From the human T2T-CHM13v2.0 reference genome, Homo sapiens, in the NCBI RefSeq assembly GCF_009914755.1, contig NC_060929.1: a stretch of 64,000 nt of DNA; one strand, given 5' to 3'. Below, one piece after another: positions 1 through 3,594 of the stretch. Under the pieces are notes generated by a model that did not search any database, had not been told where the DNA came from, and was given only the letters and a program-made list of their open reading frames with translations. A program made the position numbers and the translations under genes. The first letter of the stretch is position 1. Each line of letters starts with the position of its first letter.

Positions 1-124
1 TAAATGACAAGTTAATGGGTGCAGCACACCAACGTGGCACATGTATACATATGTAACAAACCTGCATGTTGTACACATGTACCCTAGAACTTAAAGTGTA
101 ATAAAATATATATATATAAAAAGA
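1..124 (+). mobile_element. L1PA 3' end with decayed A-rich tail (element continues left of the window)
   Basis: GGGTGCAGCACACCAAC..GGCACATGTATACATATGTAACAAACCTGCA..ATGTACCCTAGAACTTAAAGT.TAATAAAA is the L1PA 3' terminus; followed by an (AT)n/A tail. Confidence 0.93.
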
Positions 125-473
125 AATTATTGCATGGAAGATTGGCACTGAGGAAACCTGAGATGTGAGCTTTTGAGCTGATTAGATGCTTAAATTTGAG
201 CACCACTCCTATGACATTCTGTCCCCTCTCTATTTGTGTCAGTTTCTAATATAGGCATACAAGTTTCTAGCTGGAACTTTGGTATTTACACAAGTAACTG
301 CCTCTAACAGTGCATCATGGACAGAGATACACTGGTCTCCTGCTTGAACCATGTAATTCCTCTGGGTTCTCATTAAAGTTGCATAGGCATAATTACCTAC
401 AGTTTTTTCATGCTTGATTCTTTCCAACATGGCATCTATGACAATGAAACAACCAGTCCAGCCAACTCCTTCA
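124..473 (-). pseudogene. PTPRD: Processed pseudogene fragment of receptor tyrosine phosphatase delta (end of D1, linker, start of D2)
   Basis: Minus translation [74 protein letters not shown]; after a 1-nt deletion near 247 it continues [65 protein letters not shown] and LTQIE fit PTPRD better than PTPRF/PTPRS. Reads through the FK|RL position (188/189) with no intron. Confidence 0.92.
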
Positions 474-604
474 GATTCGGTAGGCTGTGCAAGCATGGCA
501 GCTGCATCTGCTTGTCTTCTGGTGTGGCCTCAGGAAGCTTTTATGCAAGGTGGAAGGTAAAGGGGGAGTGAGTGTGTCACATAGTGAGAAAGGAAGCAGA
601 AGAG
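474..604 (-). mobile_element. MST-family (ERVL-MaLR) LTR segment forming the 5' end of the PTPRD retrocopy
   Basis: Minus strand CTCTTCTGCTTCCTTTCTCACTATGTGACA...AGCTTCCTGAGGCC.CACCAGAAG..AAGCAGATGCAGCTGCCATGCTTGCACAGCCTACCGAATC resembles MST LTR from the CT-rich region to ...CAGCCTGCAGAACC. Confidence 0.8.
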
Positions 605-3594
605 CCTTTGCCAATTTTTAAATCAAGTTGCTGTTGGGATTGTTTGGTTGTTGAGTTTTAGTTCTCTGTATATTGATGATAGTAAGCCTTTATAAGTTAC
701 GTGATTTGAAAATATTTTCTCTTATCCTATGGTTTGCATTTATCACACTTGGCTGGCAATGTCTTGATTCACAAATTTATTATTAGTTTTTTTTTTAGAG
801 ATGGAAATCTCCCTATTTTGCCCAGGCTGGACTTGAACTACACTCAAGCGATCCTCCTGTCTTAGCCTTCTGGGTAATTGGGACTACAGATGCACACCAT
901 CGCATTCTAATTTTAAATCTTTATCGACTCCTGTGTGTCTATTTTTGTCTTTTTCTGTGCCTTTGGTGTCATATCCAAGAAAGCACTGCCAAATCAATGT
1001 CATGAAGCTTTTCCTTATGTTTCTTACAAGAGTGTTAGAGTTTTAGTTTACCTTTAGGTTTTTGGTATATTTAGAATTAATTTTTGTATAAAGGGTCCAA
1101 CTTAATTCTTTTACATGTGGATATCCAGTTTTCCCTGCACCATTTGTAGAAAAGATAGTCCTTTCCCCATTGAATGGTTTTGGTACCCTAGTCAAAAATC
1201 ATTTGACCATATATGTGAGGGTCTATTTCTGGGCACTCTATTCTATCCCACTGGTCATATGTCCTTCTTCATGCTAGTACTTCATGGTTTGATTATTGTA
1301 GCTTTGTAGCAAGTTTTCAAAATCAGGGAGTGTGTGTCTTTCAGGTTTGCCCTTTTTCAAGATTACTTTGACCATTCAGTGTCCCTTGAAATTCTATATA
1401 AATGTTAGGGTGGATTTTTTTATTTCTGAAAAGTACATCACTGGGATTTTGATAGATATTGCATTGAGTTTGTAGCTCACTTTGGGTAGTATTAACATCT
1501 TAATACTATTAATCCTTCCAATTCATGAATATAGAATGTCTTTCCAATTATTTATGTCCTCTTTAATTTCTTTAAGCAATATTTTGTAGTTTTTATTATA
1601 CAAGTTTTTAACCTTCTTGACTAATTCCTAAGTATTTTATTCTTTTTGATGCTATTGTAAATGCAATATTTTTTAGTTTCCTTTTCAGATTGTTCAGTTA
1701 GTCTATGAAAATGTAACTGATTTTTGTGTGCTACCTTTATAGCCTCCTGCTTTGTTGAATTTATTATTTCCACATTTTTTGTAGAATTGTTAAGGTTTTC
1801 AATATATATGATTGTGTCATCTGCAGAGATAATATTACCTCTTCCTTTTCCATTCATACGTGTTGCATTTCTTTCGCTTGACTCATTCATCTGGCTAGAA
1901 ATTCTAATATTATATTGAAGAGAAGTACCACAATTAGCAACCCTTGCCTTGTTCTTGAAATTAAAGCTTTTAATTTTTCATAATTGAGTATGATATTCAC
2001 TGCAGGTTTTCATATATGGCTTTTATTATGTTGAGTGGTTTCCCTCTATTCTTAGTTTGTTGAGTGTTTTATCATGAAAGTGTATTAAATTTTGTCAAAT
2101 GCTTCTCTTTGCATCAATTGGGATGATAATGTGTGCTTTTTTTAGTACTTTCTTTCTGTTAATGTGGTGCCTTGCATGGATTGGTTTTTGCATGTTGAAT
2201 CATCTTTCCCTTCCAGAAATAAACCCCATTTAGTCATAATGCATAATGCTTTTAATATGTCACTAAATTTAATTTGCTAGTGTTTTGTTTCAGATTGCTA
2301 TATCAATGTTTATTAGAAATTTTGGTCTGCAGTTTTTTTCTTATGATATTTTTGTCTGATTTTAGTATCAAGGTGATACTAGCCTCATAGAAGAATTAGA
2401 ACATTTTCTCTTCTATTCTATTTTTTGCATAATTTGAGAAAGATTTGTGTTAATCCTTTGAGTCTTCTTTAAATGTTGGTAGAATCCTCCAGTGAAGCCA
2501 TCAATCAGGTCCTGGGATTTTCTTTGTTGGGAGATGTCTGAGTACTGATTTAATCTCCTTACCAATAGTTATAAATCTACTTAGGTTTTCTATTTCTTCA
2601 AAATTTAGTCTTGGCAGGCTTAATGTTTTTTGCAATTTGTCCATTTCACCTAGATTAGCCAATTCGTTAGTGTACAATTTTGAATGTTTAATTTTAATTT
2701 CTCTGGAATCACTAGTAATGTTCTAATTCCTGAATTTAGTGATGAGTCTTCTGTCTTTTTTTTATAGCTGTTCTATTCGAAGTTTTGTCAATTATTTTGA
2801 TCATTTCAAATAATCAACTTTTGGTTTCCCTAAATTTCTCTATTGTTTTTCTATTCAGGGCTTCATTTTTCTCTGCTATAGTCTATTATTTCCTTTCTTC
2901 TGCTAGAGTTGGCTTTAAGTTGTTCTTTTTTTCTGGTTCCTTAAGTTGCTAAGTTAGGTAGTTGATTTCTTATCTTTGTTGATTTGAAACATGTTTATAG
3001 CTATATATTTTTCCAATTAGCACTACTTTCACTGTGTCCCATAAGCATTGGCATATTGTGTTTTTGTTTTAATTTATTTCTAATTATTTTCTAACTTTTG
3101 CTTGTTATTTTTTCTTTGATCCACTGGCTGATTTGGAGTTTGTTTTTTAAGTTCCACAAATGTGTTCATTTTCCCATTTTCTTTGTGTTATTGACTTCCA
3201 ACTTCATCTCATTGTGTACAGAGAAGATACTTTGTACAACATCTATATTTTATATCTATTAAGACTTAATTTGTGGCCTAACATGGTCGGCCTGGAAAAT
3301 GTCTCATCGGCACTTGAGAAGTATATGCATGTAGTTGTTGCTGAGTTAAGTGTTCTGTGCATGTCTGTTAGATCTAGTTGGTTTATTGTGTTAAGTCCTC
3401 TGTTTCTTTACATATATTCTGTCTTGTTTTTCTATGGATAATAGAGAATGAGATATTGAAGGCTCAAACTATTACTGAGTAACTTTTTATTTCTTACTTC
3501 AACTTTGTCAGGTTTTGCTTTATATATATTTATAGTCTGTTATTAGGTATGAAAATATTTATAATTTCCATATCTTTTTGCTATATTGAAACTT
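605..3594 (-). mobile_element. Old L1M (L1MA/L1MB-type) ORF2 relic
   Basis: Continuous antisense ORF2 homology from the endonuclease region (~3590) through the RT region (SADD remnant in ORF 1621..1890) to the C-terminal region; many stops and frameshifts. Confidence 0.88.
787..910 (-). mobile_element. FLAM/Alu monomer inserted in L1M
   Basis: poly-T then GAGATGG..CCCAGGCTGG..CTCAAGCGATCCTCCTGTCTTAGCC..GGGACTACAG. Confidence 0.85.

What the first reader, a model, noticed from the sequence alone, without database searches (positions are those of the whole stretch)
239..499. LTR supplies an in-frame ATG: predicted cytosolic PTPRD isoform lacking the D1 catalytic cysteine
Seen: GCCATG at 499-494 (minus) lies inside the LTR segment and opens [26 protein letters not shown]..., in frame with PTPRD up to the 1-nt deletion near 247. 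Knowledge: the junction falls just after the HC of the D1 signature, and D2 of LAR-family PTPs is the mostly inactive interaction domain (e.g. liprin-alpha binding). Inference: the parent transcript could encode a soluble D1-tail plus D2 protein with no ectodomain, membrane anchor or catalytic Cys, possibly a germline decoy isoform. The copy here is dead.
Basis: inference. Interest (0 to 1): 0.7.

Follow-up and report, generated by a model that had tools for sequence, protein, structure and literature searches.

The report
Fossil of an LTR-driven PTPRD transcript
This is the dead front end of a PTPRD processed pseudogene, copied from an ancient messenger RNA that began inside a retrovirus-like LTR and was spliced into the middle of the gene, so it records a shortened PTPRD transcript whose driving LTR is no longer in the human gene.

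Summary
GCCATG lies at 499-494 (minus strand) and opens an 85-codon frame (496..239) that reads PTPRD D1 sequence from just after the catalytic Cys. A 1-nt deletion at about 247 ends it.

The LTR piece (604-474) is not flanking DNA. It sits inside one L1-mediated retrocopy: target-site duplication, then the LTR piece, then spliced PTPRD exons, 3'UTR and A-tail, then the second duplication. The host is an old L1 that continues on both sides. LOC100129526 is the 3' part of the same retrocopy, cut off by a later L1 insertion.

The LTR piece starts a median 27 nt downstream of the family's TATA-like box. It ends at the column where some family copies read GTGAG. PTPRD begins there at the first base of an exon. 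So the parent RNA was an LTR-initiated, spliced chimeric mRNA.

The ATG is ancestral to the LTR family (23 of 28 copies) and in frame.

- No sense-oriented LTR of this family is left in the 33.9-kb human intron.
- The leader carries upstream ATGs.
- The copy shows no coding constraint.

The protein isoform is therefore unproven. This is a new example of a known kind.

The parts
605..619 (-). Upstream copy of the target-site duplication (AAAAATTGGCAAAGG, possibly from 622). It is part of an old minus-strand L1 into which the retrocopy inserted.
   Evidence: The same motif recurs after the A-tail, outside the window at -4328..-4341. The L1 ruler alignment shows the host L1 resumes there.
474..604 (-). 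131-nt LTR-derived first exon of the parent mRNA (MST-like MaLR LTR, sense orientation). It runs from the inferred transcription start to the LTR splice-donor column.
   Evidence: Family alignments. Mean identity to 28 copies is 78.6%. The start lies 16-30 nt (median 27) after a TATA-like T[TA]AAA[AG] box in the 21 of 28 copies that keep the box. The end column is followed by GT in 8 of 28 copies and by AT in 17 of 28.
494..496 (-). ATG in the context gctGCCATGc, 23 nt before the junction and in frame with PTPRD.
580..582 (-). Upstream ATG followed directly by TGA (a one-codon upstream ORF).
   Evidence: ATGTGA is present in 18 of 28 family copies.
505..507 (-). Upstream out-of-frame ATG in a weak context (aagcagATGc). 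It opens the 23-codon frame 507..436, which overlaps the in-frame ATG.
   Evidence: Present in 24 of 28 family copies.
189..473 (-). Copy of the PTPRD exon that begins with the third base of the Ser codon of HCS (parent C9 8348534-8348249, 286 nt). It encodes the D1 C-terminal part.
   Evidence: (the window coordinates printed are one too high).
239..496 (-). It ends at TGA 241-239, after the 1-nt deletion at ~247.
123..188 (-). First 66 nt of the next PTPRD exon, spliced on without an intron. Its last 17 nt (139-123, TTCCATGCAATAATTTC) are the TSD of the later L1 insertion.
1..122 (+). 3' end and A/T-rich tail of a younger plus-strand L1 (about -1674..122) that split the retrocopy; it is not part of the parent mRNA. 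Three further parts lie OUTSIDE the window, before base 1. (a) -1681..-4305 (- strand) is the rest of the same retrocopy, annotated LOC100129526: the remainder of the second exon, four more coding exons, and the last exon with the stop codon and 3'UTR (interrupted by an Alu), ending at the parent's poly(A) site. (b) -4306..-4325 is the A-rich tail remnant. (c) -4328..-4341 is the downstream TSD copy, after which the host L1 continues.
   Evidence: 86.6% to an L1 in a PTPRD intron; exact 17-nt TSD, repeated at -1681..-1697. Outside parts.

Best explanation
Window 604-123, together with LOC100129526 just outside the window, is a single dead L1-mediated processed pseudogene of PTPRD.

Its template was not the normal PTPRD mRNA. 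It was a chimeric mRNA that started at the promoter of an MST-like MaLR LTR lying in sense orientation in the 33.9-kb intron that splits the D1 active-site codons (VVHC-AG | T-GCG). The RNA ran 131 nt through the LTR, used the LTR's own splice donor, and joined the next PTPRD exon. It continued through all downstream exons to the normal poly(A) site.

A retrocopy can only be inherited if made in the germline or early embryo, so the chimeric RNA was present there. This was roughly at the time the LTR family was spreading in early primates.

What is shown:
- the retrocopy boundaries;
- the splice-site-precise junction, to within about 4 nt;
- the start position just downstream of the LTR's TATA-like box;
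- the family-wide in-frame ATG;
- the decay of the copy.

What is inferred:
- that the LTR acted as promoter;
- that it sat in that intron and was later deleted or never fixed;
- that the mRNA could be translated from the LTR ATG into a protein of about 366 aa (8 residues whose codons draw on the LTR, then 358 PTPRD residues), consisting of a D1 remnant without the Cys plus an intact D2.

I put translation and function of that protein at only about 0.2. The locus has no function today.
For: 1. One insertion unit. Read on the minus strand: an old L1 ends at 605 with AAAAATTGGCAAAGG; then come the LTR piece, the PTPRD exons, the 3'UTR ending 18-20 nt after ATTAAA exactly where the parent diverges, about 20 nt of A-rich tail, and AAAATGGGCAAAAA; then the same L1 continues. 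Against a younger L1 used as a ruler, the upstream flank is aligned to ruler position 956 (window 628) with 23 further host-L1 bases up to 605, and the downstream flank restarts at position 955. The target lies in a TTT|AAAAA context.

2. Intronless. Seven parent exons are joined at their GT-AG borders.

3. PTPRD side of the junction. The parent exon starts ...cctcatAG|TGCGGGAGTTGG. The upstream exon ends VVHC AG|GTAAGA. The window reads ...GAATC(474)|TGAAGGAGTTGG.

4. LTR side. In the 28-copy alignment the window leaves the family exactly before the column that reads GT in 8 of 28 copies (GTRAG in 7, GTGAG in 6).

5. Start. The first LTR base (604) aligns 16-30 nt (median 27) downstream of a TATA-like box kept by 21 of 28 copies.

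6. In-frame ATG. Present in 23 of 28 copies; in phase 2 in 21 of those 23.

7. Known mechanism. ERVL/MaLR LTRs supply a promoter, TSS, splice donor near their 3' end and sometimes an AUG, but no acceptor. They create 5'-truncated isoforms in oocytes (PMC5538554, abstract and passages).

8. Uniqueness. No second PTPRD retrocopy was found in the genome; all 8 of 8 candidates were scored, and they were this locus, four PTPRD exons and three PTPRS/PTPRF paralog exons.
Against: - No sense-oriented LTR of this family is present in the human intron or in the 110 kb examined (C9 8318531-8428530, no Ns). The only copy (8361553-8361904) is antisense and 67-73% identical to family copies.
- At the donor column 17 of 28 copies read AT, not GT. 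A GT in the source is therefore inferred, not seen.
- The first four bases of the exon copy differ from the parent at two positions (TGAA versus TGCG). TGA could also be aligned to the LTR after a 1-nt gap, so the junction is fixed only to within about 4 nt.
- No transcript data and no other species could be examined.
- Against the protein reading:
  - There are two upstream ATGs here, and 23 of 28 copies carry a further out-of-frame ATG in a CCACC context, where the window has TTG.
  - dN/dS is 0.43 against the modern parent, and differences are spread 42/45/60 over codon positions 1/2/3, as expected for neutral decay beside a constrained parent.
  - The product would keep only the last third of D1.
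  - One abstract states that LAR-RPTPs bind liprin-alpha through both D1 and D2 (PMC6954185, listing).
Confidence: 0.85

Rival explanations
1. An ordinary 5'-truncated PTPRD retrocopy happened to land inside a pre-existing LTR. The LTR and its ATG would then be flanking DNA that was never joined to PTPRD in RNA.
For: 5' truncation is common for L1-mediated copies (established knowledge). MaLR LTRs are abundant; one search found 927 first-look candidates.
Against: Only 131 nt of the LTR are present. There is no 5' part before 604 and no 3' part after the A-tail. Only about 20 nt of A-rich tail separates the 3'UTR from the TSD, and the host L1 follows. The TSDs bracket LTR and PTPRD together. 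Both sides of the junction fall on splice-site columns.
Confidence: 0.03
2. The chimera was made during reverse transcription (the L1 reverse transcriptase switched template from PTPRD mRNA to an unrelated LTR transcript) or by trans-splicing. No LTR would then ever have sat in PTPRD.
For: No source LTR is found in the human intron. A 2-3 nt overlap (TG/TGA) is possible at the junction. Template-switch chimeric retrocopies are known (recalled, not looked up).
Against: A template switch has no reason to fall at the first base of an internal exon and, at the same time, at the LTR's donor column. My rough estimate of chance for being within 4 nt of each is about 6% times 2%. The LTR part also starts at the position expected for a TSS. 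Trans-splicing would explain the junction but is rare in mammals (established knowledge).
Confidence: 0.06
3. The LTR piece was an internal, exonised segment (or part of a retained or read-through stretch) of a longer PTPRD transcript, and the retrocopy is 5'-truncated inside it. The LTR then gave a donor but not the promoter, and the ATG would be an internal codon.
For: The 5' end of a retrocopy alone cannot prove a cap site. TE exonisation is common (established knowledge).
Against: The copy starts 16-30 nt after the TATA-like box column, which random truncation would hit rarely. ERVL LTRs are reported to carry no splice acceptor (PMC5538554 passage).
Confidence: 0.06

Closest known systems
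MaLR/ERVL LTR 'plug-and-play' promoters giving 5'-truncated isoforms in oocytes. Examples: the mouse oocyte Dicer isoform from an MTC LTR in intron 6, and truncated estrogen receptor beta mRNA from an MTD LTR (PMC5538554, abstract and passages; Flemr 2013 and Peaston 2004 only as cited there).
   Same: A sense intronic MaLR LTR supplies the start site, first exon, splice donor near the LTR 3' end and an AUG. The product lacks the N-terminal part of the host protein. Germline expression is implied.
   Different: Here the transcript is known only from a retrocopy. The LTR is an MST-like primate family, and I did not assign the subfamily. The driver LTR is absent from the present human gene. No expression or function is shown.
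Processed pseudogenes as 'genomic fossils' of past transcript variants (Shemesh et al. 2006). I saw only its entry in a reference list; the paper is not held and its content is recalled.
   Same: A retrocopy preserves an mRNA form, including an alternative exon junction, that is not otherwise documented.
   Different: The preserved variant here is a transposon-initiated chimera whose source element is missing from the parent locus.
THE1B LTR-driven CSF1R transcript in Hodgkin lymphoma (PMC6558280; only the abstract start in the listing).
   Same: A primate MaLR LTR acts as an alternative promoter of a receptor gene.
   Different: That case is somatic and pathological, lies upstream of the coding region and yields a full-length protein. 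This one is intronic, truncating and ancient.
[quoted passage not shown]
   Same: It is a membrane-free intracellular PTPRD fragment.
   Different: That fragment keeps a complete D1. The form predicted here starts after the catalytic Cys and would arise by transcription, not proteolysis.

Membership tests
L1-mediated processed pseudogene (retrocopy) | Parent exons joined without introns | tested here: met
   Seven PTPRD exons are contiguous in the copy.
L1-mediated processed pseudogene (retrocopy) | Ends at the parent's poly(A) site with an A-tail | tested here: met
   The copy diverges from the parent right after ...TTTACCACA, 18-20 nt past ATTAAA, and about 20 nt of A-rich sequence follows.
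L1-mediated processed pseudogene (retrocopy) | Flanked by a target-site duplication at an A/T-rich L1-endonuclease-type site | tested here: met
   A TSD of about 15 nt, with 2 mismatches and 1 indel between the two copies, lies in a TTT|AAAAA context. The host L1 is continuous across the insertion.
LTR-initiated chimeric transcript (MaLR LTR as promoter, first exon and splice donor) | 5' end inside a sense-oriented LTR, downstream of its TATA-like box | tested here: met
   Base 604 aligns 16-30 nt (median 27) after the box in the 21 of 28 copies that keep it. That the position is a real cap site is inferred.
LTR-initiated chimeric transcript (MaLR LTR as promoter, first exon and splice donor) | The LTR part ends at a GT splice donor of the LTR | tested here: inconclusive
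   The column after the junction reads GT in 8 of 28 copies (GTRAG in 7) and AT in 17 of 28. The source's own intron side is not preserved in a spliced copy.
LTR-initiated chimeric transcript (MaLR LTR as promoter, first exon and splice donor) | The host part begins at a genuine exon acceptor | tested here: met
   The exon starts AG|TGCGGGAGTTGG in the parent, and the window continues TGAAGGAGTTGG. Resolution is about 4 nt.
LTR-initiated chimeric transcript (MaLR LTR as promoter, first exon and splice donor) | A source LTR present in sense orientation in the intron upstream of that exon | tested here: not met
   The human intron C9 8348535-8382475 has only an antisense copy. Other species are not available.
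LTR-initiated chimeric transcript (MaLR LTR as promoter, first exon and splice donor) | Transcript observed in RNA data | not testable with these tools
   No expression data were at hand. Literature searches found no paper linking PTPRD to such a transcript.
Protein tyrosine phosphatase catalytic domain (Pfam PF00102) | Complete domain with the HC(X5)R active site | tested here: not met
   Only profile positions 177-234 of 234 are matched. The ORF starts at the Ser after the Cys.
Functional retrogene | Intact reading frame and purifying selection | tested here: not met
   Three frameshifting deletions, 8 in-frame stops and an L1 in the coding part. dN/dS is 0.43, with codon-position differences of 42/45/60.
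LTR-retrotransposon-mediated retroposition (PMC5131818; abstract start in the listing) | Gene copy embedded between LTR retrotransposon parts, without an L1-type A-tail and TSD | tested here: not met
   LTR sequence lies on the 5' side only. An A-tail and an L1-type TSD are present.

The most novel reading that the evidence does not exclude
The retrocopy is the only surviving record of an MST-type LTR that inserted into the PTPRD active-site intron of an early primate and was later deleted or never fixed. From that LTR the germline made, and translated from the LTR's own ATG, a membrane-free, Cys-less 'D1 tail plus D2' PTP-delta that acted on D2 partners such as liprin-alpha. Some living primates may still carry the LTR and the isoform.
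Probability: 0.1. Interest if true: 0.6.

Novelty: new member of a known kind. Interest (0 to 1): 0.35.

Why it matters
This is a clean worked example of a processed pseudogene acting as a dated snapshot of germline transcription. It preserves the start site, first exon, donor use and start codon of a transposon-driven isoform of a major synaptic and tumour-suppressor phosphatase gene, although the driving LTR is absent from today's human gene.

Surveys that look only at present-day LTR positions would miss such events. Retrocopies with transposon-derived 5' leaders could be mined systematically to recover them.

It also corrects the annotation: LOC100129526 is missing its first 482 nt (604-123), which lie on the other side of an L1 insertion.

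For PTPRD biology the consequence is small unless a primate that still has the LTR is found.

Tried and rejected
- **Source LTR.** I searched in three ways:
  - blastn (word size 7) and single-sequence nhmmer with the window's own LTR piece against the 33.9-kb intron;
  - 8 longer family copies against 110 kb of PTPRD;
  - all 28 copies against the intron at E 0.01.
  Only the antisense copy at C9 8361553-8361904 turned up, plus hits from Alu sequence or simple repeats in the query flanks. In one search all 4 sense-strand hits came from Alu sequence in the flank of L037.
- **LTR as flanking DNA.** Rejected on the TSD and L1 continuity.
- **LTR-mediated retroposition.** Rejected on the A-tail and TSD.
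- **Early coding constraint.** Nei-Gojobori dN/dS against the modern human parent gave 0.43 over 338 codons. Without an outgroup the parent's own synonymous changes cannot be removed. About 0.5 is what neutrality would give, so there is no sign of constraint.
- **Second PTPRD retrocopy.** None found.
- **Shemesh et al. 2006.** Not held.
- **Literature.** Searches for PTPRD with LTR or alternative promoter, with LTR-initiated/MSTA/THE1 and with retrocopy or pseudogene terms, and for LOC100129526, found nothing on this locus or isoform. A 2025 PTPRD review does not contain the words truncated, cytosolic, alternative promoter, retrotransposon or pseudogene.
- The window coordinates printed are one too high because of a script offset. 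All coordinates in this report were rechecked.

Full report
**Observation**

On the minus strand GCCATG occupies 499-494. The ATG at 496-494 opens an 85-codon frame ending at TGA 241-239. Residues 8-84 align to D1 of LAR, PTPRS and relatives, starting at the Ser of the HCSAGVGRTG signature (1lar_A, E 1.8e-39). Pfam Y_phosphatase is matched only over profile positions 177-234 of 234.

**Parent gene and extent of the copy**

A search of the window's own assembly placed the coding part on contig 9 at 8348249-8348530 (88%) and the next 60 nt at 8347766-8347826. These are PTPRD exons on the minus strand.

I fetched 10 kb before the window and 110 kb of PTPRD and compared them by blastn (its printed window coordinates are one too high, corrected). 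The window piece is the 5' end of a much longer intronless copy, laid out as follows:

- first exon copy at 473-189;
- start of the second exon at 188-123;
- a younger plus-strand L1 (about -1674..122) with an exact 17-nt TSD (TTCCATGCAATAATTTC at 139-123 and at -1681..-1697);
- the rest of the second exon, four more coding exons, and the terminal exon with 3'UTR (interrupted by an Alu) down to about -4305.

This outside part coincides with the annotated pseudogene LOC100129526 (-4304..-1681). That annotation therefore lacks the first 482 nt of the copy. No other PTPRD retrocopy exists in the assembly. One search scored all 8 of 8 candidates: this locus, four PTPRD exons and three PTPRS/PTPRF paralog exons.

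**Is the LTR piece flank or cargo?**

Read on the minus strand, the order is:

- an old L1 ending at 605 with AAAAATTGGCAAAGG;
- 131 nt of LTR (604-474);
- PTPRD sequence;
- the 3'UTR, which leaves the parent sequence right after ...TTTACCACA, 18-20 nt past ATTAAA;
- about 20 nt of A-rich tail (-4306..-4325);
- AAAATGGGCAAAAA (-4328..-4341);
- the same old L1, continuing.

I used the younger L1 as a ruler. The upstream flank is aligned up to ruler position 956 (window 628), and 23 more bases of host L1 follow up to 605. The downstream flank restarts at ruler position 955. There is no LTR sequence after the tail and none before 604.

So the LTR piece and PTPRD entered as one polyadenylated RNA copy, by L1 machinery, at a TTT|AAAAA site. 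This excludes the simplest alternative, a truncated retrocopy landing in an LTR.

**The junction**

In PTPRD the exon starts ...cctcatAG|TGCGGGAGTTGGCCGG. The preceding exon, 33.9 kb upstream, ends ...VVHC AG|GTAAGA. Together they read HCS-AGVGRTG. The window reads ...CCGAATC(474)|TGAAGGAGTTGGCTGG.

I aligned the LTR piece with 28 other genomic copies taken from the best-scoring matches (8; all 28). The family starts TGATATGGTTTGG..., which I recognise from memory as MST/THE1-like MaLR. I did not assign a subfamily.

The window follows the family up to 474. The next column reads GT in 8 of 28 copies (GTRAG in 7, GTGAG in 6), AT in 17 of 28, and something else in 3. The intact form is a CpG straddling the junction. 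The AATAAA-type signal follows about 10 nt later.

So the break falls at a donor-type site on the LTR side and at the acceptor on the PTPRD side.

Caveat: bases 3-4 of the exon copy differ from the parent (AA versus CG, a CpG), and TGA could also be aligned to the LTR with a 1-nt gap. The junction is therefore fixed to within about 4 nt. My rough estimate of the chance of a random break within 4 nt of an exon border and within 4 nt of the donor column is about 6% times 2%.

**The start**

Base 604 aligns 16-30 nt (median 27) downstream of a TATA-like T[TA]AAA[AG] box, which 21 of 28 copies retain. This is where a Pol II start is expected.

It matches what is described for ERVL/MaLR LTRs: a promoter, TSS, poly(A) site, often a splice donor near the 3' end and sometimes a functional AUG, but no acceptor. 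Such LTRs generate truncated isoforms such as oocyte Dicer and truncated ER-beta (PMC5538554, abstract and passages).

**The ATG**

- It is present in 23 of 28 copies. In 21 of those 23 it has the same phase as here, and in 20 it lies at exactly 23 nt from the junction.
- The exon begins with the third base of a codon, so the ATG was in frame by the design of the family, not through an indel of this copy.
- With the human exons, the frame from the first exon copy runs 358 codons to the normal stop. The predicted product is therefore about 366 aa: about 60-65 residues of D1 after the Cys, the linker, and D2.
- It is not the first ATG. The window leader has ATGTGA at 582 and a weak-context, out-of-frame ATG at 507.
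- 23 of 28 family copies also carry an out-of-frame ATG in a CCACC context, 75 nt from the junction in most. The window reads TTG there.
- Translation from the in-frame ATG would need leaky scanning or reinitiation.

**Source LTR**

The intron (C9 8348535-8382475, no Ns) and the 110 kb examined contain a single LTR of this family. It lies at 8361553-8361904, is oriented against PTPRD, and is only 67-73% identical to family copies. It cannot be the source.

Either the source was deleted in the human lineage, or it never reached fixation, or (less likely) the chimera arose in trans.

**Age and constraint**

- The copy is 85.0% identical to the parent CDS (892 of 1050 aligned positions).
- It carries deletions of 1, 7, 18 and 1 nt and 8 in-frame stops.
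- Differences fall 42/45/60 on codon positions 1/2/3, and dN/dS is 0.43 over 338 codons.
- A constrained parent changes mostly at silent sites, so this is what neutral decay from birth looks like.
- Positions 1 and 2 give about 12.9% divergence (87 of 676). From recalled substitution rates this means some tens of millions of years, near the early primate radiation. The figure is rough.
- The LTR piece is 78.6% identical on average to the 28 copies, which are 81.4% identical to one another. The LTR insertion and the retrocopy are therefore of similar age, and the LTR was young when it was transcribed.
- MST families were active from the primate ancestor to early simians (PMC10735291, passages).

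**Verdict**

The existence of an LTR-initiated, spliced LTR-PTPRD mRNA in an ancestral germline is well supported (about 0.85). It belongs to a known kind of event. This instance appears unreported, on the searches and the review checked.

That the mRNA produced a working cytosolic, Cys-less isoform is possible but unsupported (about 0.2 for translation, about 0.1 for the full 'decoy' reading). D2 is the liprin-alpha-binding, synaptogenic domain (PMC6994669, abstract start). However, one structural study reports binding through both D1 and D2 (PMC6954185, abstract start).

The locus itself is dead.

Noticed in passing
window 123-604 versus the annotation of LOC100129526 (-4304..-1681): The annotated pseudogene covers only the part of the PTPRD retrocopy beyond the L1 insertion. 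The first 482 nt (LTR leader plus one and a half exons) lie unannotated inside the window.
   Followed up: yes
window about -1674..122 (+ strand); TSD at 139-123 and -1681..-1697: A 5'-truncated L1 of about 1.8 kb is inserted in the second exon of the retrocopy, with an exact 17-nt target-site duplication. It is 86.6% identical to an L1 in a PTPRD intron. It gives a minimum age for the retrocopy, which I did not convert into a date.
   Followed up: partly
outside the window, about -3915..-3600: An Alu element is inserted in the 3'UTR part of the retrocopy. It matches many Alus in PTPRD introns at 67-89%.
   Followed up: no
window 605 to about 2443 (- strand), interrupted at about 773-984: This is the old L1 that hosts the retrocopy, about 64% identical to the younger L1. 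It carries an Alu-like insertion in the stretch NCBI masks at 773-984. The GGCTGGGC... and poly-A motifs were seen.
   Followed up: partly
G000 contig 9, 8361553-8361904 (in L013): An older MST-like LTR lies antisense in the same PTPRD intron. It would drive transcription away from the downstream exons and is not the source.
   Followed up: yes
retrocopy CDS columns 482-488 and 547-564 (outside the window, about -1850..-1915): A 7-nt deletion and an in-frame 18-nt deletion lie in the D2-coding part. The second removes the codons across an exon-exon junction region.
   Followed up: no
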